From positions 25,194,534 through 25,258,533 of the forward strand of contig CM120644.1 of assembly GCA_051362555.1 (NCBI GenBank): DNA of 64,000 nt. The letters are read 5' to 3'. Shown in pieces: positions 1,884 to 60,380 of the stretch. Source of the stretch: Lingula anatina. Taxonomy: Eukaryota; Animalia; Brachiopoda. The stretch's first letter is position 1. Every line of letters begins with the position of its first letter. A program made the position numbers and the translations under genes. The notes beneath the pieces were generated by a model that ran no database searches, had not been told where the DNA came from, and was given only the letters and a program-made list of their open reading frames with translations.

Positions 1884-2895
1884 TCACCTTCCTGTTATTC
1901 TGTACTTCAGATGGTGTGTTCTCCTCTCCCTGCCCCAGTGGATGGACTCACTCCCCCTCAGTAGACCTATGATCACCTTCATGTTATATTCTATACTTCA
2001 GATGGTGTGTTCTCCTCTCCCTGCCCCAGTGGATGGACTCACACCCCCTCAGTAGACCTATGATCACCTTCATGTTATATTCTATACTTCAAATGGTGTG
2101 TTCTCCTCTCCCTGCCCCAGTGGATGGACTCACACCCCCTCAGTAGACCTATGATCACCTTCATGTTATATTCTATACTTCAAATGGTGTGTTCTCCTCT
2201 CCCTTCCCCAGTGGATGGACTCACTCCCCCTCAGTAGACCTATGATCACCTTCCTGTTATATTCTATACTTCAGATGGTGTGTTCTCCTCTCCCTGCCCC
2301 AGTGGATGGACTCACTCCCCCTCAGTAGACCTATGATCACCTTCATGTTATATTCTATACTTCAAATGGTGTGTTCTCCTCTCCCTGCCCTAGTGGATGG
2401 ACTCACTCCCCCTCAGTAGACCTATGATCACCTTCCTGTTATATTCTATACTTCAAATGGTGTGTTCTCCTCTCCCTGCCCCAGTGGATGGACTCACTCC
2501 CCCTCAGTAGACCTATGATCACCTTCATGTTATATTCTATACTTCAGATGGTGTGTTCTCCTCTCCCTGCCCCAGTGGATGGACTCACACCTATGATCAC
2601 CTTCATGTTATATTCTATACTTCAGATGGTGTGTTCTCCTCTCCCTGCCCCAGTGGATGGACTCACACCTATGATCACCTTCATGTTATATTCTATACTT
2701 CAGATGGTGTGTTCTCCTCTCCCTGCCCCAGTGGATGGACTATCACCCCCTCAGTAGACCTATGATCACCTTCATGTTATATTCTATACTTCAGATGGTG
2801 TGTTCTCCTCTCCCTGCCCCAGTGGATGGACTCACACCCCCTCAGTAGACCTATGATCACCTTCATGTTATATTCTATACTTCAAATGGTGTGTT
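1884..2895 (+). repeat. 91-bp (some 78-bp) minisatellite, 12 copies, containing a splice acceptor plus exon-like start
   Basis: Unit ..ttctatacttcag|ATGGTGTGTTCTCCTCTCCCTGCCCCAGTGGATGG..; period 91 measured at 1961/2052/2143. Confidence 0.95.
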
Positions 2896-4907: not shown

Positions 4908-6283
4908 GTGTGTCGGGCATACCAGACAGCGCTGGGACTGATTTCATGGTGATGTTCACTGAAAACAGAGTGCATGATCAGCCCTTCCCATATAATACAC
5001 CCAATATGACATTATATATAACCCCAATCGATGGAACCAAGGCTGTAACATTCAGCGTCTATTACATACTTCAAAACGTTTTGATAAACGTCACACGGAC
5101 GATACCAGCAGGACCCAATACAGCAGCGTCTGTGTTGCTACCGTCAGACTTAGAGGTGAGGACTAGTGGAGTGATATCGAACCTCGGTATCCGCGTAGTG
5201 GCTTCTGAAAAGATTGGTCTTTCTGCTATCAACAGGGAAGGCCATTCTTCCGACGGTTTTACAGCAATTCCAGTTTCAAAACTAGGCAAGCGGCACTATT
5301 CTGTCTCTTACGCCCCACCCCTTGTCTCCACACAAATGGGTATGGTCGCTGTGGAGTATGACACAAACGTGACCATCACTGTTGCTAGAGATGCCAAATT
5401 GACTTTTAATAGCATCTTATATTCGGGCGGTCAGACGTTCAGTTTTACACTGAACGCCTTTCAAACCATCCTGTTCGATGATGAGGTTTACCCGATGTCT
5501 GATTTGTCTGGAACACTCATCGTTTCCTCCAAGCCAATTGGCATTTTTAGCGGAAATAAAAGGACTAACGTTGGCTATGGAACAGTTTCGCGCGACCATT
5601 TGGTAGAGCAACTACCTTCTGTAGAATACTGGGGGACTGAATTCATCACAGTAGCAACGCCCCTCCGCACCAGTGGAAATATCATTAAATTTGTTGTCAG
5701 TGAACCCAACACAAACATAACAATCTACGAACATTCAACTTCCAGAAGCATCATTTTAGAAAATGGTGGTGATGCAGAAGCAGTTTATCTCAGTTCTGGT
5801 ATAGATGCCGATACAATGATCATTTCGGACAAACCCATAATGGTTGCCCAGATTGTTCATAGCCACATTGGTAGCAACCCTATGTCCGAGCCAGGGGACC
5901 CGTCCCTTACCATTCTCCCTCCCCTTTCTCAATACACCAACGCCTACACCTACGTAGTCCCTCGAATGACAGACCCGGCAGATTTAAGCGAACCCAACAA
6001 GGGACCTTTCTTTTACTTTTTGACTGTCACCATCGAGGACCAATACAAAGATGGTCTGCGGTTGAATGGTAGTGTTATTCCCGGACTTTCGTGGCACGCT
6101 GTACCTGCCATCCCAGGGAAGCCCAGCATGGTGGCCGTGTCCTTTGAAATTCAACAGAACAACATGAGATGCACACTAACGAATGTCAACCCGACCGCGA
6201 TGTTCAGTGTCCTTCTGTACGGGGCTGGGGACAGGGAAAGTTACGAGTACCCTCTAGGATTTAACCTCAATGTGCTGAACCCG
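4908..6283 (+). CDS. Exon: IgGFc-binding (FCGBP N-terminal-like) domain 1
   Basis: ttttag acceptor, CCG|gtgagt donor; [81 protein letters not shown] motifs. Confidence 0.9.
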
Positions 6284-9200
6284 GTGAGTAAATCACACTG
6301 GATTTTTGTCCATGATATGTTTTAGTTGAGATTTTTTTTTCAAAAAATGTCAATTTTTTTCTAAATTGCTAAAAGACAAAGGGTGCTATAGTACTATTTA
6401 CGTTGAACTAAAGCCAGTTTTCTAACAGATGACTATTATTTATTATTCAAAAAGAAGTAAATTTCATAAATTATAAAGAAAGAAAAATCATAAGTCAAGA
6501 TGACGTCCCGAAATTTAAATATAAGCTTGAAATCACATTATATTTTACACCAACAGAACTGAATTGAGAAAAATATCTGGAAAACGCAAGACTGCAGTGT
6601 TTTTGAATAATTCTACATGTGACGTAGATATCTAGCAAAAAGATAAGGTGACGAAAATTTTATTAATAGGCCCTAACTGTGGAGCCTCACACCTACACAT
6701 GAAGTCCAGTAAAAAAGGATGCCAACATCGGCAGGCCCTATACCAAATCTAAAAAAATGGCAGAATGTTTCATGAAGACCAACAGCGTTAATTTTAGCAT
6801 TATTTCTATACTTATAGACTTATTTCTATAAATTTCCTTGATTTTATGTGAATATACTAAATATTATATTCATTCTGTCTTTTTAGCCTGCTCCAGAGGG
6901 TAAGTTTGCATTATGCCATTAATTAATCTTACTACTTTTTAATCAACTTATCTTTATAAAGACACATACTATATCAACATTCCTTAGCACGCATAGTTTT
7001 AAAAACATTTTTTTTTTTTTTGTTTTTTGTTTTTTTTGTTTTAAAGTTGAAAGACTAGAAGAGAGGCCTATTGTTGTATGGGCTGCTATCTTCACTTGCA
7101 TTTAAGAAAAAAAGTCCAGATAGAGAGTACAAAAAAAAACAACATTAATATATAAACTATATATATTTTTATATGAAAATTTTTATCTTAAAACATACTT
7201 TGAAACCAAGGTGCTCCTAATTGTATGAAACAGTGTTCATAAGTAAAACAGCAAACAAGGTTTGAGGGGATATGTGCATGCGTGTCTTGTGACCTCTTTC
7301 TCACGGTCGTCTCTCGCAGTATTCACAATACAATGTGTGGCTTGCAGTACTTAGAAAGTTGTAGGGTGTAGCGTTGAAGGTGAGATTTACACAGAAAGAG
7401 AGGTTTTCTATAGTTCTGAGTGTACATGTTGTATATGTTAGCCCAGTTGGCTGCCAAAGGGAAAATGTGGAAGAAGAAATGGCTCGTGCAGCGGCGGCTG
7501 GTAGTACTACCGGTAGTACTACTACTGACCACCACTACTACGAGTAGTTCTACTATTAATATTAACGTGGTATTACTGCTATTGGCGTTCACTTATGACA
7601 TAGTAACTATTGCGCAAAATAGTAGGTTAAAGATAATAGTATGTTTTTATAATATCTGCATTTTTAATATAATGTTGATTTATAATAATAATAATAATAA
7701 TAATAACAGGGGTTTTGTACCACACTGTCTTATCTTACTTTTATGAAATAAATTTAGGATATTTTTTGCAAGTTTAGATTTCAGCCCATTGTAATATATA
7801 ATACATTATGATTTGCCTCAGTTTTTGGTCTTACATGCTATAGTACCCTTACAGCAGGTGAGGGTGAACCCTGGCCCCCGTTTCACAAAAAAACTTAAGT
7901 CAGTTTCCCTGACTAAAAGCTTGGTTACCAACGTAATTAAGTCGTTACGTCACTAAGTCCCGTTTCACAAAGAATCTAAAAGGTCGCTTACGTCGTTTTT
8001 TCTTAGCTGTAAGTCGACGATGTCAAGCCTCCTCGGGAGGAGACTTAAGTCGGCAAGCTCAACTAAAAGTCGGTAAATGAGAGCATAAACAACAAAAATT
8101 TGGAAAGAACATACCTCCTTCAAGATATAGTGTTATAATATCCTTGAATAGCACTGACATTTATGGAATATTGAAATAAAAAATAAAATGCCACTTCACC
8201 CAGCCGATTGCGTGTTTGTTTACGTTTTTGACTGCTAGACGTCCGTCAGCAGTGTCCCACGACAAGCTAATGTTTAACTGTTACTTTGAAGTTGTATCGA
8301 AGTTAAACTAATCAATAAAGTTCAAAAATAAACTTTGTTTGCGTTTTTGCTGATTTTTATTGTTGATCAACGTTCGTTCTCGGCCGAAAGAGGCCATGAA
8401 AAGTCATGTCATGTGAAACTTTTGAAATTTTAAACCTCCTTTTCTTGAAGAGTTTCTCGTGCGCGTCGACTACGGTAAGCACACCAAGCTAAGACGTTAG
8501 ATTCTTTGTGAAACACTCCTAGTCGACTTCAGCTAAGTCGACCTAGCTAGGCCACCCATCCCGAGCTAGTCGACTACGGATTTAAGATTCTTTGTGAAAC
8601 GGGGGCCTGGTTAGTATTTCAAACTTAAGTGTCTTAAACTAAATATCCACATCCTGACAAAACTAGTGTTTATAAAGGACCATTCCCACAGATATTTGGA
8701 TCGATCTATCTCCCTGGGGAGTCTCACTAAATTGCTATCAAACTAACTGGCTTTAACGTCACACCTAGTAAAGCTGTTAGTGGGTAATTATCTTTACCTC
8801 TAGCTGATTTGTTAGGCTTGACAGACATGTAAGCCTCTTGAGTTGATAGCAATTTAGCGTGAACCCCCAGGGAATTAGGTCGATCCAGATGGATCGATCT
8901 AAGTATGGGAACCCAGTGTTACACTAGGCAGGGTAAGGTCTTACCAATGGTAGGGGTACTGAGTAAGCATGTAGGACCATAAACTGAGGCAAAATAAGAC
9001 AGAGGACCATAACCACCAATGATGTCAACATCTGGTTGATGACCCCTGTAAAATAAAGGTTATCATTTTATTCATGTTCAGTCTCCAAATATAGTAACAT
9101 TTTCATATTACCCTTGAACTAATAATAATTTTCAATTTCTTACTTTTTTTAGTGTGCAGTAGTCAAGCAGCTGATCGCCAATGCATTATCAGTGGCAATA

Positions 9201-12200
9201 ACTTTTGTCAAGGTATGATATCCAAATAATTTCAGAAAAATTGTCTTGCCAATTAATATACAAGTCTATATATAATAAAAAATAAGTAATTCCTTATGTT
9301 TAGTAGTACTTACCATCATTTACGTATGACAACCAATTTTTTAAATGACCGCCACCGCTTTTTAAAGTTAGTAGGTTTTTTTCACCCCATATGAAACGAT
9401 AATAATTATAAAATCAGGTGCACCTTCACCTGCTCTCAACTATTCTAGGCACACCCTTTGACAGTCAGGGTTATGGTTTTGTGCTGATGTTCAGTGAGCA
9501 CTACACTCAGGTGGGAAACCCATACAATCCCTTCCTGGTCATTACTAATGCTGAAACAGAAAATGTACAGGTAGGATGAAAAGTTATGGACAAAACATGG
9601 TATGCTTTTCTTTTTACTTATTAATTTAATATGCCCCATATCTACTTCCCATTTGAATTTTTTTCAAATTGCAAAAAAGGGAGGAAAACTAAAATATTTC
9701 CCTCTTGGCTCAAACAGTGGCCATTCTACACGTAAAAAGTTAATCAAATTGCATTTAGGTAATTGTCCAAATGATAGATCTTGGAACTTGAAACCTCTTT
9801 TTCCTTATTCCGGATGACACAGTTTCACTGTATAGTATTGAGCTATAAATGAGTGTATATACTCAACTAAGAAACCCCAGCCTAACCAATTTAAAAATTA
9901 CCTTTAGGTGAATGTGATAACTCCACGCTGGAGCAGCCCAAGTGTAAATGAGCAATTCACGTTGGCCACTGGTCAGTATCGTACCGTGAGTATTCCACAA
10001 GAGCTCCGCATGCAGCAGTCAACTCTCTCCACCAAGGCCATCTTGGTCCAGTCAAATGGGGAGGTAGTTGTCCAGGGTGTGAATTCTGAAGAACGCTCTA
10101 CAGGCATGTTTCTTGCTCTTCCAATTGATGCTGTTGGCAGTGAGTATTATGCAGTGTGTTACAGCCCTGCTTTCCTTCATTGCCAGTTTGGTATTGCTGC
10201 AATACAAGATGGAACAGAGGTCTCGATATCTTTACCTTCTCCACTGCCTTCTGGTCAAATTGTGCAGGTGACTTTTCAGGGCACAACATACTATAGTGGA
10301 CAAACAATCCACCTGACCCTCAGTGCCTATGACACTGTTCAAATACAGGCTGCTCAAGACCTGACTGGCTCTCATATCATAACCAGCAAACCAGTGAGCT
10401 TCTTCAGTGGGAACAGGCATACAAACATTGACCAAGGGTTAGGTGGACAAACAAAAGATCACACTGTAGAAATGCTCCCACCAGTATCTGCCTGGGGTAA
10501 AGAGTTCATCACTTTCCAAATTCCAGACGGGACAGTATCTAATCCTGGGAACAATTTCAGAGCTGTGGTTCCCAGATTCAGTCAAACACCACAACTCGAC
10601 CTGACAGTGGGCTCCAACAACATATACCCGACAGTGCCCAATGGGTTTTCTTATGCCCAGTTCCTGGTTGGCCAAGGAAGCCAAAACACTTATGCCTATC
10701 TGTCATCAAACACTCCAATAATGTTAGCTGAATTTATTGTCAGTATGATAGGTACCAGTGAGGTAGCTGATCCTTCTATGATTTATCTGCCACCTATTTC
10801 ATTGTACAGGAATGAATACACATTCACTGCCCTGGAAAGATCTCTCAGCACAAACAAGGTTTTTGTCAACACAATTTTTATTGTCAGTCCTTTGTCAGGT
10901 CGTGGTGACATCACATTGGATGGGAATGCCTTACCGGCAATTACCTGGACCAATGTGGATGCAGGGGGTGTCATGTACAGTGCCGGCTTCTTTACTGTCA
11001 GCGCTGGCTTTCACAAACTGAGTCATCCCAAAGCGAACCATTATTTTGGTGCAGTGCTGTATGGAATTGTTTTGAATGATACAGTAGCCTCAGAATCCTA
11101 TGCTACTGCTATTGGCATGAGGCTGTCCAGGATTAATGAAGTAAGTGTAAATCCTGAGAAGTACAAGTAATACCTGTTTCATTGTAAGGTACATGTGAAA
11201 CAACTTCCCAGGGTTTTTTTTAATATAATGACAATACAATTAGATATCCATAATTATAATTTGGATTATTTCTTCTATACATTGCCTTGTCCGATAGTAA
11301 GTGAAGTGGCACTTAAGTTATTCAATTTTATATTATTTGTAGCCTTGTGGATGCAATGTCACTACAACAGCCCAGTTCCAAGCAGATGGCATAGACAATG
11401 ATTGTGATGGGCGGGTTGATGAGGAAGACTGCAGTGATGCAAATACAGGTATATTGTTTCATTGATTTGTGTTCATGCATATTTTGGTATGTAACACTGA
11501 TTTTCTTAAATAGTTTGGAATTTTGATAGCCTCATGTGAGACTTGTGTAATTTTTACCAATTTAATAAATTATGTTTGGAATGTACTTCTTGTATCACTG
11601 TGGGTAAACTATACTTAAAGCATGTTACAGTATGATCGCCCTTTTCTTTGTCAGATGAAGATGGTGATGGAAAACAGAATGAGGATTGTGCAAAAGGTAT
11701 GAGAGTCTTTCTTTTTTAACCATGGGTGGATCTACTACATCTAGGGATCCGTTGGTGTGTGTATGTGTGTGTGTGTGTAGAGTGAGCATTTCATACCTCC
11801 CCACCTCCAAAAAATAAAAAAGGCAGAATGTCCTGCTGCACACTTTTATTTTGTCATTTTAAGGTTCACATTTAGCAAAAGTATAGCAACATAATGACCT
11901 AAAAGCAAATATAATCCAAAATGTGTTTTCAACAACCTAGAATTAATAGGTGTTTTGGTTGGATTACATAATTATTCATTTTCAAAAACAGCCTAGTTAA
12001 TGTTAACTTTATCACATTTTGCCCAAACAGGCAAAAAAAAAAAAAAAAAAAAAAAACAACAGTTGAACAACAGTTGAACAACAGTCACATATTTTGCCGT
12101 ATATATGAAGTAGATGGCCATTGGTCTCGTGTTTTGCTGTATATATATGAAGTGGATGGCCAGTGGTCTCATATTTTGCTGTATATATGAAGTGAATGGC

Positions 12201-20091: not shown

Positions 20092-20156
<65 letters not shown>

Positions 20157-22266: not shown

Positions 22267-22317
<51 letters not shown>

Positions 22318-40300: not shown

Positions 40301-40740
40301 GAGACGCTGGCCAAACTCACAGAACACACCACAGAGATTACTGCTCACTCACAGGTACTGAACACTGGATGTCTTTTTGCATTGTAGATAGTTGCCTCTA
40401 ATCTAGTATTTATATTCTTTAGGCTTCAGTTTTTTATGTTTAATCCTCAAAACTTGTTATATCAGATTAAAAATTGTACAAACTGGTTCTCATGAATGAA
40501 TTCCCTAATAGCAAAATATCAGACCTGCTGCAAACCCTCTCTAAAATTCAGTGCAAATTAGCTGCAAGTTTGCTTCTAATTTGCTGTGAATTTGCAAGAA
40601 CTTGAGTACTTTCTTGCAACCTTACTGCAAACTTCATATGTTCTTGCAAACCTGCTGTAAACTTAAGTTGTTATTGCAAATTTGTTGCAAATCAGCAGCA
40701 ATAAAATTTTTCCTTGCAAACTCCTGGAAACTAGTTGCTG

Positions 40741-40779
<39 letters not shown>

Positions 40780-45253: not shown

Positions 45254-45284
<31 letters not shown>

Positions 45285-51200: not shown

Positions 51201-54200
51201 ACTGTCTGTGTATATTATTACATATTGGTACCAGTACATTAGTATTGAATACTATACTCCATCACTGTCTGTGTACACTGTAACATATTGGTACCAGTAC
51301 ATTAGTATTGAATACTATACTCCATCACTGTCTGTGTACACTGTAATATATTGGTACCAGTACATTAGTATTGAATACTATACTACATCACTGTCTGTGT
51401 ATATTATTACATATTGGTACCAGTACATTAGTATTGAATACTACGGTAATGTGCCATGAATTTCGAACAGTAGAAAATAATTAAATTTGGGAAAAGATCG
51501 TTCTGGCCGAAATTCATGAAATGGAGGTGCTCAGAACTTCCGAAAGTTCGAATTTCATGGAATTCTGTCAATTTTGACCGAAAGTTGTCTGTTCGTCGCT
51601 AGGCCTTCTGTTATCTTCTCCCGACGATCTATTTAGAGTTACCATAATGTATGATGTGTGAGTGTCGGTAATTGCGACCAAAGGTATACACGTACTTTCA
51701 CCCGATCACTGTGTATGGCCCATAGATAGAGCGGTACTGTTGTCTAGGGCCGCAAAACAGCATCGTTATCAGTAGTGTCGTTTTTCAAAAGCGATTCTGG
51801 CAGCCAGAAACTAGTGTCGTTTTTCAAAAACGATCCTGGCGCTCAGAACGGGAGTGGACGGAGGGAGAGACGGCCGACGATTAGCGTCTGCCACGACCAG
51901 ATAACCTTTACTATGGAAGCTTAGTGTTACCGTTGCTCCTTTCCGTGCACTGAAACCGAGACGACAGCCGATCAGTGTCTATGGCGCACGTGCAGGTAGC
52001 CTTCATCTGCGATAAGAGTCTTCCGCGACCAGGTTCGTTGCCTTTACCGTTAAAGTCGGGTGGAGCTTTACGCGCGAATGTGTCCTCATCTCGCCGTTCG
52101 CGGGTCGGTGTCTCCGACGCATACGTAGCCTTCCCTGCAGAAGCCGGCCTCGGCACTACGGCCTCTCCTCCGTGCGGGGAGGCCACTACGACCGCAGATC
52201 GGTATGTGCGGCGCACAGGTAGCCTTCGCCACGGCAGCCGAACTGTGTATTACGGTCTCTATCCGTCGTGCGCTGCGACCAAGATGACCGCTGATTGTTG
52301 TCTGCGATCAAATATACTAGGTTTGGGGGGGTGGGTGGGGGGGTGGGGTGGGGGGGGTGCAGGGCCGTTTTTTTTTTTTTTTTTTCGCTCAGGCAACCCA
52401 TTCTTAACCAGCAGCATCAACTGATTTCCTGGCGCATAGTTGCGTCAATGTACGCATTTGAAAAGCGTGTACGTTTTGTCATTGAAACCATCTTCAAACA
52501 AACGCGAGAGATAGGTAATCTAGAGTAAACCGAAAAGGCAGTTTTTATATGCGTTCAAGGGACTAGAAGATCGTCAATGGGAGATAGTGAGCGATCTGAG
52601 CGCGACAATAAGCCAATTTCCACACTAGTTCAAGGGATTTCGTTACTATATTCGTCAGCAAGAGATCGTCAGCGATCCGAGCAAGCATAGAAGCTTGGAA
52701 TTTTTGTCCATGCTAGAAGGCAATTTTCATGTAGTCAGCAGGATATGGTTTGCTGGTTTGCGACAGGGGCGTAACCAGGCATATGCACGGATACACTGTG
52801 CGTATATAATTTTTTAGCCAACCATGATATTATTCTCTATAAATCTAGTGTACTTTTCAAGGAATATTATCGAAAATCCCCTTCGATTATAAGTCAATGT
52901 CACCTGAATGTACAAATTCTCTGTATAATTTATATATGCACCATTGTTCTGACACCCTTTTCCGTTTGCTTTCGCAGAACTGAGGTAAACAATACAGTTA
53001 CCATCTGAAGTCCGATCTTAATCGTCCATCTAGCTGGAACTTGCTTTACCTCTTAATTAGAGGGTAGAGTGCCCTTCAGCTCACAGGTAGCTTTTGTCTT
53101 GAGTGTATCGAACGCGATATTTATCTCAGATAAAAATCTACCTGTGTGTTATTTTCAAAGAGCTGCTCCAGCAGACCTGGGGGCACTAGATAAATCTGAT
53201 CATCGGGCTAAACAAGGAGCCAGAGAAACAAAGGAAGATTGACTTTTCCAGAAAAGTGTCAAAGAATTTTGACACGGACTTGATCCAGCATAACCCTCCA
53301 AACTAACGGGGTGGCATGGGCCTTTTTTTACAAAATTTACAAACAATTAAACTTAGATATATTACAATTTTATCCTTTAATATAATTTTATGAGGCATGC
53401 ACCCGCATGTAAGCTGGGTGATGTAAGTAAGCCCCTAGTTAAATAAATATACCCTTATGATCAAGGCTTTTCCAAGCGAACCGTCCAGTCGTCATTTGGA
53501 CGGCCGCTGACATCACCGGACGGCCTGTATTTTCAAAGACGGCTAGACGGCCTGCGACTTTTTTTTTAATGACGTCTTGGCTTGTCGGGGCAGCCGTGGA
53601 TGTTGTAAGAAATTTTCTTAGAGTAATTTGACGTACCTAGCTTTTATGATGCGTCACAGATGAATGGTACTACTTTGTAGTGTACGCTGATATTCAGTTA
53701 CGATGAAACGACTTCCTAAAGCTTACAAAACACAATAAAATGTTGCTATGAACTTTAAGATACACATTCCACGCCGTATGCAGCAGTGACAAGAGTGACC
53801 TTCATGCGGTACAAAACACTAAGCAAACTACAGGCCAATTTGTGAAAGGGGACACCTTCCGGACCTTCATACGCACGGCAACTGACAAAGCTGATTGACA
53901 AAAAGGAAAATTTCAATTTTTCAGGGAGAGATCGTTCGCAATCCGAGAGAGACCAGGAGGCAATTTTCATATTTGTTAAAGAGACTTCGTAAGCCAAAGG
54001 GCGAGAAGAGAACGCAATTTTCGTATCGTCAGCGTCGCAATCCGAGTGAAACGAGAAAGCTCATACTCGTTCAGTGGCTTTCGTTTGCGGAAGATCGTCA
54101 GCCGGAGATCGTTCTCGATTGTTTTTAACCCTCCATCCCTCCCCATTTATAATTTTTAAAAATATTTTTCATTTCATTTGTACATTTCAAGGGACTTCAT

Positions 54201-57200
54201 TAGCGGAAGATCGTCAGCTGGAGATCGTGAACGATCTGAGCGAGACAAGAAAGCAATAATGGTTATCTTTGTTGCAGCTCTTAATATTGCTCTTTTGTTC
54301 TGTTACTGAAGTCTCTACTGTTAACAATGCTATTGTGCGCCTCAGCAAAACTACCGATCGCTATCTCACACCGAATATTGCGGTAAAGAAACAACAGCCC
54401 GACAGTACAACTCTTAATAGATTCTCCTGTTATCTGAATGAATGGATATGACGATGTTGTTTAGCGTCCTTAACTAACTGTACTGATCGTTATCTTGCAC
54501 CTTGGGCCGCACACGTAGTACTCAGGTAAAGGTACGCTAGGGCAACATTGCCGACTGTTAGATCTTCATAAGCGCGAGAATAGCCCGGTGGCCGATTTTA
54601 AGGTGTACGAAATTCACGAAATCAAGATCGCGCAAAATTGCTTACTGGCCGAAATTCATGGTCCAGAAAAAACTCCAGACGGCCGATTTTAAGATCGTTC
54701 GAAATTCAAGAGCCGTTCGAAATTCATGGCACTTTACCGTATACTCCATCACTGTCTGTGTACACTGTAATATATTGGTACCAGTACATTAGTATTGAAT
54801 ACTATACTCCATCACTGTCTGTGTACACTGTAACATATTGGTACCAGTACATTAGTATTGAATACTATACTCCATCACTGTCTGTGTACACTGTAACATA
54901 TTGGTACCAGTACATTAGTATTGAATACTATACTCCATCACTGTCTTTGTACACTGTAATATATTGGTACCAGTACATTAGTATTGAATACTATACTCCA
55001 TCACTGTCTTTGTACACTGTAACATATTGGTACCAGTACATTAGTATTGAATACTATACTCCATCACTGTCTGTGTACACTGTAACATATTGGTACCAGT
55101 ACATTAGTATTGAATACTATACTCCATCACTGTCTGTGTATATTATTACATATTGGTACCAGTACATTAGTATTGGGTGCTACAATGTATATCCCCTGGA
55201 CAACGCTATCCACTGATGATGAAATGCACTTTCCTCTGGGTACTACTATTTTTATCCATAGGATGATTAACAATTACTATGTTACAATACACAGGGCACC
55301 TAGATGTTAATGAGAGTGTCCAACTTCTGGTCACAGTCCACTCCAGTGTCTGTCTGTTCTGGGATGTTAATTAACAATTATTACTATGTTACAATACCAC
55401 AGGGCACCTAGATGTTAATGAGAGTGTCCAACTTCTGGTCACAGTCCATTCCAGTGTCTGTCTGTTCTGGGATGTTAATTAACAATTATTACTATGTTAC
55501 AATACACAGGGCACCTAGATGTTAATGAGAGTGTCCAACTTCTGGTCACAGTCCATTCCAGTGCCTGTCTGTTCTGGGGTGTTAATTAACAATTATTACT
55601 ATGTTACAATACACAGGGCACCTAGATGTTAATGAGAGTGTCCAACTTCTGGTCACAGTCCACTCCAGTCTGTCTGTTCTGGGGTGTTAATTAACAATTA
55701 TTACTATGTTACAATACACAGGGCACCTAGATGTTAATGAGAGTGTCCAACTTCTGGTCACAGTCCATTCCAGTGTCTGTCTGTTCTGGGATGTTAATTA
55801 ACAATTATTACTATGTTACAATACACAGGGCACCTAGATGTTAATGAGAGTGTCCAACTTCTGGTCACAGTCCATTCTAGTGCCTGTCTGTTCTGGGATG
55901 AGCAGAGAGAAATCTGGAGTAGTGAAGGATGTAAGGTAGTCAGCTTTTTTGTTTCAATATAGATGGATTGATAGAATAATAAATAGATAAATAAATATGA
56001 AAACATTGACCAGGGTTTTCACCTAATACATTTCCCACTTTCTGTATCCAAAACATTGACCAGGGTTTTCACCTAATACATTTCCCACTTTCTGTATCCA
56101 AGTCTCTCTTATAGCAGATGTCTACTCCAAACACAATCCAACTATTTCTCACCTAACACATTTCCAAATTTCTGTATCCAAGTCTCTCTAACAGCAGGTG
56201 TTTTCTCCAAACACAATCCAACTATTTCTCACCTAGCACATTTCCCACTTTCTGTTTCCAGGTTTCTCCTCTCAGCACAGCTGTTACTTTACACTGTATC
56301 TGTCATCACATGACTGTGTTTTCTGGCAGTTTCTTTATTCTGCCTAATGCCATTGATATTGTGGCAGACTCTGCTCTGTTCCTGACTTTACTGGAGAACC
56401 CATTGGTGGTGAGCATTGTGCTGTGTGTATGGGGCATCTACCTGGCAGTTGTTATCTGGGCACGCAAGAAGGACAGGGAAGACCTACTTAAGGTGAATGG
56501 ACCTCTAATTTTTATATACAAGATTGCTTGGGGAGTGTGAGGGGATTTTATTTCAGTTTACCATGACTTCAGTGGGTCTCAGAAGAATCCCTTTTTAACT
56601 CTTTCTCAGCCCTGTAATATGTGCTTGAAAAAGTAAATGCACTCCACAACAGCTGATGCTGAATACTTATTTTAGTTTTTATGCAACCAAATAAAACTCA
56701 GTATTGGGCATTATCTATATCAGTAATCATTAAATTAATGCAAAGCTCCCAGGTGCTCACATTTTGATGTTTTCAAACATTTACATGTAGATTAAGAATA
56801 TAGAATGAGCGTTTTGCACACTAGAAATTTTAGCTTAAATCCATTGAAATCTTTTGGCTTCACTGTTGCTTATGACATTGATAGTAACAATTCTTTTCAT
56901 CTCTCCAGGCTGGAGTGACAGTGTTAGAAGACAATGATCCAGAGAATAAGTATGGCTACCTTGTCACAGTTATCACTGGCTGGAGGACGGGGGCAGGGAC
57001 CACAGCTAATGTGGGTTGTTTTATTAAAGGTGAATTTCAAGGCTGTAATAAAAAAAAAGGCTGTGAAAATAAATTACAAGCCAATTCAATCTTTAATTGT
57101 ACAATCACAAACTTATCTCTTGTTTTCAATTTTTCTTTTCCATTTTAAAGGTGAAGATGGTGAAAGTGAGCGTCATGTCCTGAGTGACCCCAGGCGTCCA

Positions 57201-59120
57201 GTATTTGAGAGTGGTGGCGTGGACAGTTTCCTACTGACCTGTGCCCAGTGCCTGGGTGACCTCGTCTCTGTCACCATCTGGCACGACAACTCTGGAGCTG
57301 CTCCTGCCTGGTTTCTGGAGAAGTTGACAGTGAGTGACCTGCAGAGAAATGAGGTGTGTGAGTTCCTGTGTAACCGCTGGCTTGCTCTGGACCTGGATGA
57401 CTTCTGCATCCAGCGTACACTGCGCCCTGCCTCAGTGGAGGAGATGAAGGAGTTCTCGTACCTGTTCTCCAGTAACAGTGGCTTCAGCATGAGGGAAAAA
57501 CATCTGTGGGTCAGTGTGTTCTCTTGTCCACCAAATTGTCCCTTCACAAGAACCCAGAGACTGACCTGTGCTCTGACCCTTCTACTGACCACCATGCTGA
57601 CCAATATCATGTTTTATGGCATCCCAACTGATGACCCAGAAGATCAATACCAAGTAAACTTATTTGATTAATCTTTTTATCCAGAATATATCTACATGTA
57701 TTTATCTAGTTATTTATTTATTTATTTTTTGGTTTTAGGTGGTTTGCTTGTTTGTTTATGTTTTGTACCCCCCCCCCCCCCCCCAAAAAAAAAAAAAAGT
57801 AAAATAAATAAATAAAATGAAAAGATTCTGTCATTGTTGCAGTTGCTTTAGAAAATGTTTGCTTAAAATGTTTGATTAGTTGTGACATTTTATTAGGAGC
57901 GGTTTTGATTGGAAAGACTCTTATTATTGGTTTAGGAAATTCATTTCTTTCATCATTTCTTCCAGTATGATTTTAAGAATTTATATAAGGGAAATTCAAT
58001 TCCAGGTGGCAGATTTCCAATTTTCTCTGTCTGACATAATAATTGGTATTGAGAGTGGGCTGCTGATGTTCCCAGTGAACCTGGTCATAGTGCAGCTATT
58101 TAGAATGTGTGCTCCAAGACCTGTGAGTACACATAAGGAAGACATCATGCCCAGAACTTCCATGCAACAAAGAGATTCAGCTCAGATGTCAGTGCTAGGA
58201 GCAGATGTTAACCATTCACAGAGCAGAAATAGCAGTAGGGTCTTGGGGAATGTGATTGGTGGTAGTGATGTAGATAAAGTACCAAATGCAACCTCTAACA
58301 GTGTAATTAAAAGTAGTTTAAATACTGATGACCAGGCTGTAACAGATAGAAACATTGCACTCTTTAATGAAAATGAAAGTGAGAACAACTCCTGGTCTTG
58401 TACTTTGGGTGTGGCCATCCTTGCTGGAGGAGAAGTGATGGGTCAGGTGTCTACTGACCAGTCTCTGGACATGGGTGGACATTTTATTGGACGTAAGAAA
58501 GAAAGCCAGACTGTGGAGAAGGCCAGCATATGGTGTGGATCAGGTGCTGGTATCACGCCATCTGACCTTGATATCACCCTTGACCTTGACCTACTTCACG
58601 GAGAAAGCCCTGACATACCATTATTACATATGGTAGGTGCTTTGCTCAGAGTAAAAGAAAATTTCGAAAGTTTCAGAATTTTTTATGTAATTTTCCAAAA
58701 AGGGGGATATTTAAAGGTTTTCCCCCCTGTCACTTCCATCTGTTTCATCTGTCTTCTACTAATTTTCTGATTACACTGGTACTGTAGATATTTTAAGGTG
58801 CTATAAGTTTGTATACTTACTGTAGACTAAATAGAACATGGTTAAACCTTTTTTATTACATTTTGTTTTATTGCTATAAATGTATTATTATTATTATTAT
58901 TAGTATTAGTATTTTGTTTGTTTTTACTTTTTCTCATCTAGGACAATTCAAGTGAAGTTTCTGTGATTACATTGGAGGAAGAAAAGAATACACCTTTCAG
59001 GTGAATGAAATTTGTCTTGTTTTTGTTACTACTGAAAATGTAAGTGTAATTTAACTTTTATCCTTTCTCTCTCCCTCTCTCTCTTCTCTCTCTCCTTTTA
59101 CACACATGCACACACACACT

Positions 59121-59162
<42 letters not shown>

Positions 59163-60380
59163 TCTCATGCTGTATAGGTACAGTACTAAAACTGAATGCT
59201 AGTTATATGTAATGTTTGACTGTTTGACATCATCATCCACACACCCCCTGGCTGCTTCTTTATCTTAGAGCGCATTCTCAACGAATTAAGCCAGGCTTTA
59301 CAAAGCCGGTGACCTAAAAATGGCGGACGTACATGAAAGAAAAACCACCTAATCTTTTAATAGTCTCTCCGCCTCTCACACGCCTCCCCACACGTCGTCC
59401 CTGCGGGGTACAGTAATTAAATCTCGGCTCCGAACATTAATATTTCCGTGAATATCTCTGGTGATATTATCTCCGTAGATAGTCGATTCATTGCTGCTCT
59501 ACGGGCCAAATTATTCCTTTTTCGTCTCTGTTTTCAAAGATAATAAAACAGAAGAGCTTTTTTCCTTCGATCGCCTTCAGCTGCCATGCTTTCTTCACCA
59601 CGAGTTTAACTGATGAGCATGGTACTTAATATTTCTCAGGTAGCTTCCGCATGGCGAACGGAGACGCGATTTAATTACTGTACCCCGCAGGGACGACGTG
59701 TGGGGAGGCGGAGAGACTATTAAAAGATTAGGCGGTTTTTCTTTCATGTACGTCCGCCATTTTTAGGTCACCGGCTTTGTAAAGCCTGGCTTAATTCGTT
59801 GAGAATCCGCTATTAGATGACTCTGCTCTTTAGCTTTACTTTGTCTTCAGACTACCATGGTGGTATATCTACATAGCCTGGGTGGTGACAGTGTTAACTT
59901 GTAGCTTTACTTTGTCTTCAGACTACCATGGTGGTATATCTACATAGCCTGGGTGGTGACAGTGTTAACTTGTAGCTTTACTTTGTCTTCAGACTACCAT
60001 GGTGGTGTATCTACATAGCCTGGGTGGTGACAGTGTTAACTTATAGCTTTACTTTGTCTTCAGACTACCATGGTGGTGTATCTACATAGCCTGGGTGGTG
60101 ACAGTGTTAACTTATAGCTTTACTTTGTCTTCAGACTACCATGGTGGTGTATCTACATAGCCTGGGTGGTGACAGTGTTAACTTGTAGCTTTACTTTGTC
60201 TTCAGACTACCATGGTGGTGTATCTACATAGCCTGGGTGGTGGCAGTGTTAACCTGTCTGGTCTGCTCTTACTTCACCATGCTGTATGGACTGAAGTATG
60301 GACACAAGAAAAGTGTGCAGTGGGTGGTTGCCTTCTTTACAGGGTTCTTCCAAAGTGTGTGTATTACACAGCCAATTAAG
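4908..60380 (+). CDS. Multi-exon polycystin-1-like (PKD1L/REJ family) receptor gene, partial at both ends; IgGFc-binding x2, TSP1 x19, sushi, EGF-like, REJ, GAIN/GPS, PLAT, TM1-5
   Basis: 48 exons with canonical AG/GT ends and matching phases, total 10,313 nt (2 nt + 3437 codons). Diagnostic motifs: CLFWD..WSSEGC / CICHHMT (GPS), [30 protein letters not shown] (PLAT), [30 protein letters not shown]. Whether the 5' half (to 31061) and 3' half (from 31758) are one transcript is inferred from phase and the absence of a terminal or initial exon. Confidence 0.8.
6887..6899 (+). CDS. 13-nt microexon (PAPE)
   Basis: tctgtctttttag|CCTGCTCCAGAGG|gtaagt; converts phase 0 to phase 1, as needed by the downstream exons. 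Confidence 0.65.
7874..8606. mobile_element. PIF/Harbinger-like MITE family 1
   Basis: TIR GCCCCCGTTTCACAAA, CTG target duplication; inverted copy at 49138-49871. Confidence 0.85.
9153..9212 (+). CDS. Exon: Cys-containing linker ([20 protein letters not shown])
   Basis: ttttttag acceptor, AAG|gtatga donor, 60 nt, phase 1-1. Confidence 0.65.
9449..9570 (+). CDS. Exon: start of IgGFc-binding domain 2 ([17 protein letters not shown])
   Basis: Homologous to [15 protein letters not shown] of domain 1; ttctag / CAG|gtagga; phase 1-0. Confidence 0.85.
9908..11140 (+). CDS. Exon: IgGFc-binding domain 2 body
   Basis: [70 protein letters not shown]; GAA|gtaagt. Confidence 0.9.
11343..11448 (+). CDS. 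Exon: acidic putative metal-binding motif ([17 protein letters not shown])
   Basis: ttgtag / ACAG|gtatat; DGxDNDCDGxVDE motif; phase 0-1. Confidence 0.85.
11655..11696 (+). CDS. Exon: second acidic motif ([14 protein letters not shown])
   Basis: ctttgtcag / AAG|gtatga; 42 nt, phase 1-1. Confidence 0.8.
12086..13150 (+). repeat. 49-bp (some 40-bp) minisatellite spanning the acceptor of TSP1 exon 13127, about 22 copies
   Basis: Unit atattttgctgtatatatgaag|TGGATGGCCAGTGGTCTCAGTGGTC; one inverted unit at 12197-12242. Confidence 0.95.
13127..13309 (+). CDS. Exon: TSP1 repeat 1
   Basis: [29 protein letters not shown]...CNTNGCP; its acceptor is the last copy of the 49-bp array. Confidence 0.9.
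13426..14287. mobile_element. Related TA-TSD TIR element
   Basis: TA|CGGTAATGT...ATATTACCG|TA. Confidence 0.7.
14444..14916. mobile_element. MITE with ~70-bp TIRs
   Basis: cactagtgggctagatttggtcttaaagtgcaat.. / ..attgcactttaagaccaaatcaagctcactagtg. Confidence 0.75.
15333..15503 (+). CDS. Exon: TSP1 repeat 2
   Basis: [29 protein letters not shown]...CNSQGCP; ttttag / A|gtaagt. Confidence 0.9.
16096..16266 (+). CDS. Exon: TSP1 type A copy 1
   Basis: [28 protein letters not shown]; 171 nt, phase 1-1. Confidence 0.88.
16469..16645 (+). CDS. Exon: TSP1 type B copy 1
   Basis: [28 protein letters not shown]; 177 nt, phase 1-1. Confidence 0.88.
16786..16956 (+). CDS. Exon: TSP1 type A copy 2
   Basis: tttgtag / CCAG|gtgaga; near-identical to other A copies. 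Confidence 0.88.
18189..18734. mobile_element. MITE family 4 with long TIRs, nested in the TA-target element
   Basis: TIR GAGCGCATTCTCAACGAATTAAGCC; TAA/TTA flanks; empty site at ~28037. Confidence 0.85.
19842..20638. mobile_element. EnSpm/CACTA-like non-autonomous element
   Basis: CCCAG..TGGG ends, AA flanks, many AACGTTG subterminal motifs; internal (TA)n. Confidence 0.6.
20095..20154. repeat. (TA)n microsatellite; others at 22271-22314 (TA), 45248-45292 (TG + G run), 59100-59160 (CA)
   Basis: Seen directly. Confidence 0.95.
22544..22714 (+). CDS. Exon: TSP1 type A copy 3
   Basis: ccatag / CCAG|gtaaat. Confidence 0.88.
22905..23081 (+). CDS. Exon: TSP1 type B copy 2
   Basis: tttcag / CCAA|gtgaga. 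Confidence 0.88.
23220..23712. mobile_element. Tourist/Harbinger-like MITE family 3 (further copies 24423-24915, 25622-26116, truncated 31197-31370)
   Basis: Long TIRs starting GGCTC, TAA TSD; empty sites cattaatagagc at ~16762, ~26825, ~30478. Confidence 0.85.
23747..23917 (+). CDS. Exon: TSP1 type A copy 4
   Basis: tttgtag / CCAG|gtaaat. Confidence 0.85.
24108..24284 (+). CDS. Exon: TSP1 type B copy 3
   Basis: tttcag / CCAA|gtgaga. Confidence 0.85.
24950..25120 (+). CDS. Exon: TSP1 type A copy 5
   Basis: tttgtag / CCAG|gtaaat. Confidence 0.85.
25311..25487 (+). CDS. Exon: TSP1 type B copy 4
   Basis: tttcag / CCAA|gtgaga. Confidence 0.85.
26151..26321 (+). CDS. Exon: TSP1 type A copy 6
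   Basis: tttgtag / CCAG|gtaaat. Confidence 0.85.
26520..26696 (+). CDS. Exon: TSP1 type B copy 5
   Basis: tttcag / CCAA|gtgaga. Confidence 0.85.
26861..27031 (+). CDS. Exon: TSP1 type A copy 7
   Basis: tttgtag / CCAG|gtgaga. Confidence 0.85.
27138..29466. mobile_element. Inverted, internally deleted copy of the 51444 element
   Basis: Ends gaaattcatggcacattaccg|TA; same insertion point as the 22192 copy. Confidence 0.8.
29800..29970 (+). CDS. Exon: TSP1 type A copy 8
   Basis: [22 protein letters not shown]; ccatag / CCAG|gtaaat. Confidence 0.85.
30171..30347 (+). CDS. Exon: TSP1 type B copy 6
   Basis: tttcag / CCAA|gtgaga. Confidence 0.85.
30514..30684 (+). CDS. Exon: TSP1 type A copy 9
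   Basis: tttgtag / CCAG|gtaaat. Confidence 0.85.
30885..31061 (+). CDS. Exon: TSP1 type B copy 7 (extra Cys, GGGCQ)
   Basis: tttcag / CCAA|gtgaga. Confidence 0.85.
31758..31925 (+). CDS. Exon: sushi/CCP domain
   Basis: [40 protein letters not shown]; tttcag / T|gtaaga; phase 1-1. Confidence 0.9.
32470..33420. mobile_element. TIR element with TAA TSD (PIF/Harbinger-like)
   Basis: taa|ggccacac..tttttatggatgacatcct ... aggatgtcatccataaaaa..ggcc|taa. Confidence 0.75.
33802..33981 (+). CDS. Exon: TSP1 repeat 19
   Basis: [27 protein letters not shown]...CLDQICP; phase 1-1. Confidence 0.88.
34170..35760 (+). mobile_element. Dispersed element with GTC microsatellite and internal ~160-bp tandem repeats, possibly Helentron-associated (related segments 47760-49130 and ~3100-3800)
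   Basis: caggtcaagttcgaaaatc recurs about every 160 bp (34348-34830); shared flanks with 47760 onward. Confidence 0.55.
35822..35948 (+). CDS. Exon: Cys-rich EGF-like linker into REJ
   Basis: [28 protein letters not shown]; tttcag / AG|gtgatt; phase 1-2 matches next exon. Confidence 0.75.
36108..36342 (-). mobile_element. ~240-bp dispersed repeat (other copies 8678-8915, 43131-43385)
   Basis: Shared ends ggaccattccca.. and ..gatcgatctaagtatgggaaccca; here it interrupts the 74-bp array. Confidence 0.7.
36341..36910 (+). repeat. 74-bp minisatellite spanning the acceptor of exon 36865, 8 acceptors
   Basis: AG ends at 36346, 36420, 36494, 36568, 36642, 36716, 36790, 36864. Confidence 0.95.
36865..37091 (+). 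CDS. Exon: REJ domain start
   Basis: [49 protein letters not shown]; G|gtaagt. Confidence 0.85.
37215..37349 (+). repeat. 56-bp duplication spanning the acceptor of exon 37306
   Basis: tgtgtctgtag|GTACAAGTCAG at 37249 and 37305. Confidence 0.9.
37306..37521 (+). CDS. Exon: REJ core
   Basis: [29 protein letters not shown] matches the REJ CxVxPxxG...TxFxxxCxx(W/F)xD pattern. Confidence 0.88.
37764..38450 (+). mobile_element. Internally deleted Harbinger element, family 2
   Basis: TIR GGGCCGGTTTCACAAAGCAGTAGTT, CTG TSD; relic [23 protein letters not shown] resembles a Harbinger transposase N-terminus. Confidence 0.85.
38538..38683 (+). CDS. Exon: REJ
   Basis: tttcctcag / CAG|gtatgt; [16 protein letters not shown]; donor is the first copy of an 87-bp array. 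Confidence 0.82.
38627..39134 (+). repeat. 87-bp minisatellite spanning the donor of exon 38538-38683, 6 donors
   Basis: GTCCAG|gtatgt ends at 38683, 38770, 38857, 38947, 39034, 39121. Confidence 0.95.
39360..39480 (+). CDS. Exon: REJ/GAIN-A region
   Basis: [16 protein letters not shown]; phase 0-1. Confidence 0.75.
39608..39827 (+). repeat. 91-93-bp triplication spanning the acceptor of exon 39799
   Basis: cttttag|(C/T)TGTTCTACAGCTGGTT at 39614, 39707, 39798. Confidence 0.9.
39799..39881 (+). CDS. Exon: GAIN-A helical region
   Basis: [18 protein letters not shown]; CAG|gtaaat. Confidence 0.8.
40229..40354 (+). CDS. Exon: GAIN-A helical region
   Basis: [38 protein letters not shown]; ttccacag / CAG|gtactg. 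Confidence 0.82.
40503..40787. mobile_element. Short EnSpm-like element
   Basis: CCC..GGG ends, TT flanks, repeated TTGCAA/TGCAAA motifs. Confidence 0.5.
40801..41421. mobile_element. MITE with TA flanks
   Basis: TIR GACT(T/C)GCCCTTCAAGAAATCG. Confidence 0.7.
42372..42463 (+). CDS. Exon: GAIN-A region
   Basis: ttcttcag / AC|gtaagc; phase 0-2. Confidence 0.78.
42540..42900. mobile_element. Degenerate partial copy of MITE family 1
   Basis: gcccccagttcacaaagaatcttaaatcc.. similar to 49138 onward. Confidence 0.65.
42967..43072 (+). CDS. Exon: GAIN-A region
   Basis: [12 protein letters not shown]; phase 2-0; AAG|gtgaga. Confidence 0.78.
43610..43730 (+). repeat. 21-bp degenerate minisatellite (caaccagcaacatcaatcaaa)
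   Basis: About 5-6 imperfect copies. Confidence 0.7.
43963..44082 (+). CDS. Exon: GAIN ([15 protein letters not shown])
   Basis: ttcctcttgcag / AAG|gtaagt; VPGEEP motif typical of PKD1-like GAIN. Confidence 0.85.
44616..44798 (+). CDS. Exon: GAIN-B region
   Basis: ttttag / CAG|gtacta; open 183 nt, phase 0-0. Confidence 0.72.
45458..45608 (+). CDS. Exon: GAIN-B ([15 protein letters not shown])
   Basis: NPFxW and LxEPxxIxIP motifs; G|gtaagg. Confidence 0.85.
45862..46549 (+). mobile_element. Internally deleted Harbinger element, family 2, second copy
   Basis: Near-identical to 37764-38450; CTG TSD. Confidence 0.85.
46641..46831 (+). CDS. Exon: GAIN-B region
   Basis: [15 protein letters not shown]; phase 1-0. 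Confidence 0.8.
47470..47638 (+). CDS. Exon: GAIN-B region
   Basis: [14 protein letters not shown]; A|gtgagt; phase 0-1. Confidence 0.8.
49138..49871. mobile_element. PIF/Harbinger-like MITE family 1, second copy
   Basis: CTG TSD; the host repeat's empty site (gggcctgaagccttatgc) is visible at ~3530. Confidence 0.85.
50180..55175 (+). repeat. 63-bp intronic minisatellite (about 20 + 7 copies) split by a TIR element
   Basis: Unit atactccatcactgtctgtgtacactgtaacatattggtaccagtacattagtattgaatact at 50180-51443 and 54740-55175. Confidence 0.95.
51444..54739. mobile_element. 3.3-kb non-autonomous TIR element with TA TSD (Tc1/mariner-like)
   Basis: TIR CGGTAA(T/A)GTGCCATGAATTTCGAAC; gaatacTA..TAtactcc versus the empty satellite unit gaatacTAtactcc; no transposase ORF seen. 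Confidence 0.85.
55260..55900 (+). repeat. ~107-bp minisatellite spanning the acceptor of the GPS exon, 6 acceptors
   Basis: acag|GGCACCTAG at 55294, 55402, 55509, 55616, 55721, 55828. Confidence 0.95.
55829..55935 (+). CDS. Exon: GPS motif first half
   Basis: [22 protein letters not shown]; acceptor is the last copy of a ~107-bp array. Confidence 0.9.
56001..56297 (+). repeat. Degenerate tandem copies of the acceptor region of exon 56262
   Basis: cacctaatacatttcccactttctgtatccaa repeated, versus the real ..tttcccactttctgtttccag|G. Confidence 0.8.
56262..56492 (+). CDS. Exon: GPS cleavage site and TM1
   Basis: [49 protein letters not shown]. Confidence 0.92.
56909..57029 (+). CDS. Exon: PLAT/LH2 start
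   Basis: [27 protein letters not shown]. Confidence 0.92.
57151..57653 (+). CDS. Exon: PLAT/LH2 and TM2
   Basis: [52 protein letters not shown]. Confidence 0.92.
58006..58632 (+). CDS. Exon: TM3 and intracellular loop
   Basis: [23 protein letters not shown]; ATG|gtaggt. Confidence 0.82.
58942..59000 (+). CDS. Exon: loop before TM4
   Basis: ctcatctag / AG|gtgaat; phase 0-2. Confidence 0.78.
59268..59812. mobile_element. MITE family 4, second copy (opposite orientation)
   Basis: Same TIRs, TTA TSD. Confidence 0.85.
59831..60253 (+). repeat. 71-bp minisatellite spanning the acceptor of exon 60206, 6 acceptors
   Basis: tttgtcttcag|ACTACCATGG at 59850, 59921, 59992, 60063, 60134, 60205. Confidence 0.95.
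60206..60380 (+). CDS. Exon: TM4-TM5
   Basis: [33 protein letters not shown]; AAG|gtgagt; gene continues beyond the window. Confidence 0.92.

What the first reader, a model, noticed from the sequence alone, without database searches (positions are those of the whole stretch)
1884..60253. Recurrent splice-site minisatellites: nine independent tandem arrays built from exon-intron junctions
Seen: arrays at 1884, 12086, 36341, 37215, 38627, 39608, 55260, 56001 and 59831 have unrelated units (91, 49, 74, 56, 87, 92, 107, ~50-80 and 71 bp). Every unit straddles a splice site (8 acceptors, 1 donor). Eight of the 48 exons are affected, while only a few sizeable arrays (63, 160 and 21 bp) are purely intronic, although junctions are a tiny fraction of the DNA. 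The intact exon is always the copy nearest its partner site (last acceptor, first donor), which fits exon definition. Inference: a mutational process targets splice junctions (splicing-coupled R-loop or Pol II pausing with slippage, or RNA-templated repair), or such arrays are retained as tunable splicing regulators.
Basis: partly seen in the sequence, partly recalled or inferred. Interest (0 to 1): 0.88.

Follow-up and report, generated by a model that had tools for sequence, protein, structure and literature searches.

The report
Seven 'mirage' splice-junction repeats, brachiopod polycystin
Seven exon borders of one large receptor gene, likely from the brachiopod Lingula, have each been copied head-to-tail into short repeats that the few RNA reads examined splice past normally; such "mirage" repeats are already known from lancelets and humans, and these are likely harmless by-products whose crowding at intron ends is still unexplained.

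Summary
All nine arrays exist with unrelated units. They lie in or just before a 48-exon polycystin-1-like gene, 96-97% identical over one exon to proteins named Lingula anatina. Seven clearly copy a working splice junction (6 acceptors, 1 donor). The 56000 array is mostly intron end. The 1884 array has no intact exon here: its last copy lacks AG and is cut by a multicopy element. Seven or 8 of 11 arrays span a junction against 1.6-1.8 expected (P 1e-5 to 5e-4), but in one hand-picked window, and only P 0.04-0.13 against DNA near exons. Three arrays recur in DNA of two other samples. Sparse RNA at three junctions uses only the canonical site. None of 43 spare acceptors gives an open frame. "Intact exon is the last acceptor" follows from the geometry of tandem duplication. 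The class is published: amphioxus mirages, human F7-type VNTRs. This scan also noted it before in other genomes. I found no brachiopod case and no genome-wide test of the bias. Known kind, new member; neutral by-product most likely.

The parts
4908..60380 (+). Host gene, 48 exons seen: polycystin-1-like (2 IgGFc-binding, 19 TSP1-type exons, sushi, REJ, GPS, PLAT, membrane part); first and last exons not identified
   Evidence: Open frame across exons; Pfam on 11 exons; 97% and 96% to proteins named Lingula anatina PKD1L2
1880..2895 (+). 91/78-bp array with an acceptor-like site and a 19-codon open stretch; no intact exon in the window; junction status unverified
12084..13151 (+). 49-bp acceptor array, 22 junction copies, last one opens exon 8 (13127); inverted piece at 12197-12242
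36041..36108 (+). Older, decayed copy of the exon-29 junction unit, cut off from the array by about 230 bp of unrelated inserted sequence
   Evidence: alignment score 74 against a shuffle maximum of 35 in 500 shuffles
36340..36910 (+). 74-bp acceptor array, 8 junction copies, last one opens exon 29 (36865)
   Evidence: no RNA depth on the penultimate copy, raised DNA depth in X2 and X4
37215..37346 (+). 56-bp acceptor array, 2 junction copies, last one opens exon 30 (37306)
   Evidence: 3 RNA reads join exon 29 to the last copy
38628..39135 (+). 87-bp donor array, 6 junction copies, first one closes exon 31 (38683); the next two spare donors are in frame and stop-free
   Evidence: no RNA depth at 38728-38790
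39596..39827 (+). 92-bp acceptor array, 3 junction copies, last one opens exon 33 (39799)
55273..55900 (+). 107-bp acceptor array, 6 junction copies, last one opens exon 42 (55829, GPS region)
   Evidence: exon matches P0050
56000..56268 (+). 50+80-bp array of the intron end before exon 43 (56262); only 7 nt of exon; upstream copies read AA (marginal case)
59831..60257 (+). 71-bp acceptor array, 6 junction copies, last one opens exon 48 (60206)
   Evidence: exon matches P0050
50162..55175 (.). Intronic 63-bp array (control), split by a 3.3-kb insertion with inverted ends at 51444-54739
34342..34894 (.). Intronic 160-bp array (control), part of a repeat that recurs near 47800-48400

Best explanation
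Seven arrays are head-to-tail copies of a working exon-intron border, likely seeded by short repair or replication duplications that would arise more often at intron ends than elsewhere, and likely expanded as ordinary, functionless minisatellites. Shown: each unit is genomic intron plus exon; one end copy stays joined to the rest of the exon; units have diverged, inverted and taken insertions; three arrays recur in other samples. Inferred: a 50-110-bp segment across the border was duplicated at 1-5 nt of shared letters, then grew by unequal exchange or slippage, with inner copies homogenised. The spliceosome would pair the exon's far site with the nearest copy, and rare use of a spare acceptor would shift the frame or meet a stop and be removed by nonsense-mediated decay, so the arrays cost little. 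The cause of the bias towards acceptors is inferred only: most likely exposed or paused DNA at the pyrimidine tract and 3' splice site during transcription.
For: Unit anatomy. Shared letters at the unit joints: 3 nt in the 49-bp array and 1 nt in the 71-bp array; 5 nt in the 107-bp and 3 nt in the 74-bp array (read by eye from the sequences printed). Enrichment of 7-8 of 11 against 1.6-1.8 expected, unchanged when the TSP1 cassette is collapsed. Strong echoes at 6 of 33 acceptors and 1 of 33 donors. 0 of 43 spare acceptors in frame and stop-free. RNA in X12: 3 reads join exon 29 to the last copy of the 56-bp array; zero depth on the penultimate 74-bp copy and beyond the first 87-bp donor. Signs of age and turnover: decayed relic copy, inverted piece, AG lost in the 1884 and 56000 arrays. 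Variant units and unequal normalised depth in X2 and X4. Amphioxus mirages are reported to splice normally and to vary in length (PMC3087553, passages).
Against: One window, chosen for the pattern; no genome held. Against DNA within 150 bp of a junction the excess is weak (P 0.04-0.13). The acceptor bias is weak: 7:1 P 0.07, 8:1 P 0.04; the clear cases alone are 6:1. RNA depth was only about 4-8, came from other individuals and perhaps other gene copies, and covered 3 of the 7 clear arrays. In 41 of 43 spare acceptors the AG is intact, mostly scoring like the used site. Nothing here tests the transcription-linked cause.
Confidence: 0.5

Rival explanations
1. Exon-anchored recombination. In a very polymorphic genome alleles pair mainly in exons; exchange or repair starting in an exon would stall where intron homology drops, so duplications would be born or would grow at exon edges, without any role for transcription.
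For: The best DNA holders share only 0.49-0.58 of the sampled words. Two mobile-element-like insertions of the window appear absent in contigs of X2 and X4: joints skipping about 700 bp near 37755-38455. End copies differ from inner copies, as reported for amphioxus (PMC3087553). The excess is mostly 'near exons'.
Against: It predicts donors and acceptors alike, but the clear cases are 6:1. The flanking intron 37092-37235 is contiguous and close to the window in both X2 and X4 (table 8).
Confidence: 0.25
2. No bias at all: the genome is rich in minisatellites and this window is a lucky extreme among very many scanned.
For: The window and the 40-bp cut-off were chosen after seeing the data; the scan covers some 250,000 windows (tool description); no genome was held for a test.
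Against: P of 1e-5 to 8e-4 under several nulls. Published clusters in several amphioxus genes (PMC3087553, PMC3902484).
Confidence: 0.12
3. The arrays are kept as tunable splicing regulators: copy number would set splicing efficiency or add in-frame segments.
For: The 87-bp donor array offers 2 in-frame, stop-free extensions of 29 and 58 residues out of 5 spare donors. Spare donors are used in the human 6-16 and CBS genes (PMC1557585, passages). Low RNA depth cannot exclude minor use.
Against: 0 of 43 spare acceptors give an open frame. No read-through seen at the 87-bp array. Unrelated units, decay and insertions fit drift.
Confidence: 0.08
4. RNA-templated duplication from spliced mRNA or from the lariat-exon intermediate.
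For: The intron part is 15-35 nt in about 6 of 8 acceptor-type units, near branch-point distance (expected 3.1, P 0.04, post hoc).
Against: Units contain unspliced intron, not the neighbouring exon. In the two cases with both a branch-like motif and a clear unit start (74- and 107-bp arrays) the unit begins a few nt upstream of the motif, not at it.
Confidence: 0.03
5. Assembly or polishing artefact.
Against: Contigs of X2 and X4 (two samples, two studies) show unit-to-unit joints or variant units and depth 4 to more than 100 times the flank at the 74-, 56- and 87-bp arrays. Internal variants, an inversion and insertions are not what polishing produces.
Confidence: 0.02

Closest known systems
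Amphioxus 'mirage' minisatellites (Adh3, globins BflGb6 and BflGb9, troponin C, PGBD5); PMC3087553 and PMC3902484, passages read; the original Adh paper was not held
   Same: Tandem copies of an exon-intron border, at 5' or 3' borders; units of tens to about 160 bp; many copies keep AG or GT; normal splicing; length differs between haplotypes; end copies escape homogenisation; mechanism stated as unclear.
   Different: Here a likely brachiopod, not a cephalochordate; seven unrelated arrays in one gene; mostly acceptors; a within-gene null test is added.
Human junction VNTRs: F7 intron 7 (37 bp), 6-16, CBS intron 13, lamin B2, PDGF intron 4 (PMC1557585, passages read)
   Same: First unit spans the border and leaves identical spare sites; the site nearest the exon is used (F7, lamin B2, PDGF). 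The 87-bp donor array here has the same layout.
   Different: Those are donor-side and one per gene; 6-16 and CBS use some spare sites. Here six of seven are acceptor-side.
Variable internal tandem repeats at exon-intron borders in human segmental duplications (PMC2812944, passages read)
   Same: Minisatellites at borders in recently duplicated genes; this gene also has a young internal TSP1 cassette and apparently more than one copy or divergent alleles.
   Different: There many such repeats create new introns or alternative transcripts; no such product was seen here.

Membership tests
mirage minisatellite | Tandem units that span an exon-intron border of a real gene | tested here: met
   7 of 9 arrays; 56000 marginal; 1884 unverified
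mirage minisatellite | Spare copies often keep AG or GT | tested here: met
   41 of 43 spare acceptors keep AG, 5 of 5 spare donors keep GT
mirage minisatellite | Regular splicing is undisturbed | tested here: inconclusive
   Only canonical use at 3 of 7 arrays, depth about 4-8, other individuals
mirage minisatellite | Copy number varies between haplotypes | tested here: inconclusive
   Variant units and different normalised depth in X2 and X4 (13.0 vs 4.3 at the 74-bp array; 13.8 vs 35.4 at the 56-bp array), but summed contig depth is not a copy number
mirage minisatellite | Concerted evolution with end copies excluded | tested here: met
   Inner units carry 13-43 nt that match neither flank in the 74-, 87-, 92- and 107-bp arrays; no tree was built
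mirage minisatellite | Somatic instability | not testable with these tools
   Needs single-molecule typing of tissues from one animal
tandem-duplication intron gain | A spare copy becomes an exon, or a new intron forms between copies | tested here: not met
   0 of 43 spare acceptors give an open frame; the annotated Lingula protein has no extra segments at the four arrays it covers
alternative-splicing regulator | Spare sites used in RNA, or copy number linked to isoform level | tested here: inconclusive
   No use seen at low depth; association not testable here

The most novel reading that the evidence does not exclude
A splice-acceptor-targeted mutational process operates in the germline of marine invertebrates: transcription or spliceosome assembly at the branch point and pyrimidine tract seeds 50-110-bp duplications so often that about one exon in five of a gene (7 of 34 distinct exons here) carries its own decoy-acceptor array, leaving a DNA record of co-transcriptional splicing.
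Probability: 0.25. Interest if true: 0.7.

Novelty: new member of a known kind. Interest (0 to 1): 0.33.

Why it matters
As a class it is known, so the single arrays are ordinary. What is left is the density and the lean towards acceptors. If a genome-wide test confirms them, minisatellite birth would be tied to exon structure, and the open question of how mirages form would become testable by simple counts (acceptor against donor, germline expression, intron divergence). The arrays are also natural tests of 3' splice-site choice among up to 21 near-identical decoys, and a practical hazard for gene annotation and short-read assembly.

Tried and rejected
Own genome: not held, so no genome-wide test. 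A tenth junction array: an open 69-nt candidate exon at 55171-55239 beside the 63-bp array fitted the frame but is absent from P0050 and leaves a 23-residue gap against P0049; rejected. Older echoes at other junctions: three more probes topped their null (43963, 47470, 58942) with scores of only 21-29; not counted. Exon status of the 1884 array: no close relative of the next exon among 150 listed hits, best identity 39%; its 19-residue peptide scores 44 against 215 fetched proteins, where shuffles reach 43; no spliced read seen in three RNA runs. Array-bearing acceptors (7) do not differ from the others (26) in intron length, exon length, GC or TG count. The intron-position control was uninformative, since its hits fall inside the arrays themselves. 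IgGFc homolog and atlas searches did not name the organism. No RNA holder was listed by index. Literature: no brachiopod or Lingula case in the listings; no genome-wide enrichment test recognised in the listings (titles and abstract starts only; subscription papers are not searched; supplements were not read). The scan's notes held nothing for this genome, for Lingula, for a genome-wide null, or for the 1884 unit.

Full report
Observation. Tandem Repeats Finder recovers all nine arrays at the stated coordinates, and their units are unrelated. No genome is held for this window, so all counts are from the window itself.

Host gene. Exons placed by coordinates and snapped to AG and GT give one open frame from 4908 to 60380. 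Pfam finds two IgGFc-binding domains, TSP1, sushi, REJ, a weak GPS and PLAT on the 11 exons scanned. The PLAT exon is 97% and 96% identical to two proteins named Lingula anatina polycystic kidney disease protein 1-like 2; the next hit, from Owenia, is 57%. The organism is therefore likely Lingula, a brachiopod. The model matches P0050 at 87% over 1006 aligned residues, except for a 69-nt candidate exon that I had added beside the 63-bp array; it is absent there and was dropped.

Which arrays copy a junction. Aligning 40 nt of each exon edge to the adjacent intron gives strong copies at 7 of 66 probes: six of 33 acceptors and one of 33 donors (14 duplicated TSP1 exons left out). These are the 49-, 74-, 56-, 92-, 107- and 71-bp acceptor arrays and the 87-bp donor array. 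The 56000 array copies the intron end with only 7 nt of exon, and its two upstream copies read AA. The 1884 array lies before the first modelled exon. Five of its 12 junction copies read AA, the last among them; the frame closes after 19 codons; and a multicopy element begins at about 2895. RNA laid on it is mostly from the opposite strand to the gene (about 38 against 7 in X12), runs from unit to unit and has an 89-bp period, so it probably comes from a related array elsewhere. Its status as a splice-junction array is unverified.

More than chance? With each array collapsed to one unit, 1.6-1.8 of 11 arrays of period 40 or more should span one of 95 junctions; 8 do if 56000 is counted (P 1.5e-5 to 4.7e-5), 7 if not (P 2e-4 to 5e-4). 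Collapsing the TSP1 cassette or lowering the period to 20 (16 arrays) keeps P at 2e-5 to 8e-4. Two limits apply. The window was chosen for this pattern. And when only DNA within 150 bp of a junction is allowed, P rises to 0.04-0.13, so 'near exons' is better shown than 'on the junction'. The acceptor lean is 7:1 (P 0.07) or 8:1 (P 0.04); the clear cases are 6:1.

Real, and variable. Contigs of two DNA runs from different samples and studies (X2, X4) show unit-to-unit joints or variant units at the 74-, 56- and 87-bp arrays, with summed depth 4 to more than 100 times the flanking intron. The ratios differ between the samples at two arrays (13.0 against 4.3; 13.8 against 35.4), which suggests copy-number variation; the tool warns that this depth is no copy number, and other gene copies may contribute. 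Signs of age are a decayed extra copy at 36041-36108 (score 74, shuffle maximum 35), an inverted piece at 12197-12242, and 13-43 nt in the inner units of four arrays that match neither flank.

Splicing. In RNA run X12, three reads join exon 29 to the last copy of the 56-bp array, with up to 58 nt on the shorter side; four reads join exons 30 and 31; depth is zero on the penultimate 74-bp copy and beyond the first 87-bp donor. Depth was only about 4-8, run X15 added little, and joints with fewer than three reads are not listed, so minor use is not excluded. Of 43 spare acceptors 41 keep AG, 11 are in frame and none is also stop-free; of 5 spare donors all are in frame and the first two are stop-free. 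That the intact exon is the last acceptor copy or the first donor copy is forced by the geometry of a tandem duplication and says nothing about exon definition. The RNA result is what bears on site choice.

How it most likely works. Each unit is genomic intron plus exon, so a spliced mRNA template is out. Unit joints share 1-5 letters (partly read by eye), as expected for slippage or template switching in repair (established knowledge, not tested). After the first duplication the array would grow by ordinary minisatellite turnover. It would be tolerated because the copy joined to the exon is chosen and stray products would be degraded (inferred). Why duplications crowd at intron ends is not shown. 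I favour exposed or paused DNA at the 3' splice site during transcription (0.5) over recombination anchored in conserved exons (0.25), a lucky window (0.12), adaptive regulation (0.08), a lariat template (0.03) and artefact (0.02).

Comparison with what is known. The globin paper PMC3087553 (passages) describes minisatellite-like duplications of intron-exon borders in amphioxus, named mirages after the Adh3 case, with normal splicing, haplotype length differences, end copies excluded from homogenisation and an unclear mechanism. PMC3902484 (passages) adds PGBD5, with two such arrays in one gene, and troponin C. PMC1557585 (passages) lists human donor-side cases (F7, 6-16, CBS, lamin B2, PDGF). 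PMC2812944 (passages) reports variable repeats at borders in duplicated human genes. The original Adh paper was not held. The seven clear arrays meet the sequence criteria of a mirage; normal splicing and length variation are consistent but thinly tested. Earlier notes of this scan report the same kind in annelid, octopod, sea urchin and chimaera DNA; they are unchecked leads, and one pointed me to the F7 paper.

Novelty and verdict. I found no brachiopod case and no genome-wide enrichment test, from listings only. The finding is a dense new example of a known kind. The possible targeted bias remains a good, cheap question. Interest 0.33.

Noticed in passing
window 16096-31061: Young internal cassette of 16 TSP1 exons in two alternating types (9 of 171 nt, at least 94% alike; 7 of 177 nt, at least 98% alike), with flanking introns copied too; none carries a junction array.
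   Followed up: partly
window 51444-54739: 3.3-kb element with inverted ends inserted into the 63-bp array; related pieces at 17467-22194 and 27308-29468 in the opposite orientation.
   Followed up: partly
window 37761-38453 and 45859-46552; 7873-8611 and 49133-49872; 18185-18735 and 59267-59816: Three families of 550-740-bp elements with inverted ends, each twice in the window at 95-97% identity. The 37761 copy appears absent from contigs of X2 and X4 and draws many RNA reads from other loci.
   Followed up: partly
window 1880-2895: The 91-bp array has a transcribed relative with an 89-bp period, read mainly on the opposite strand in three polyA runs; some copies also carry a donor-like site on the minus strand (score 8.1).
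   Followed up: partly
window 38684-39121: The 87-bp donor array reads as an open 29-residue repeat for two units before a stop; the only array here that could lengthen the protein.
   Followed up: partly
window 4908-60380: The model joins IgGFc-binding and TSP1 exons to the polycystin part in one frame of about 3440 residues; the annotated protein P0050 starts only at model residue 2462. One transcript was not shown.
   Followed up: no
window 6887-6899: 13-nt micro-exon needed for the frame between exons 1 and 3; no RNA check.
   Followed up: no
window 36881-37527: Exon contigs in X2 and X4 are 1.6-2.4 times deeper than the intron contig between them, suggesting further gene copies in the species.
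   Followed up: no
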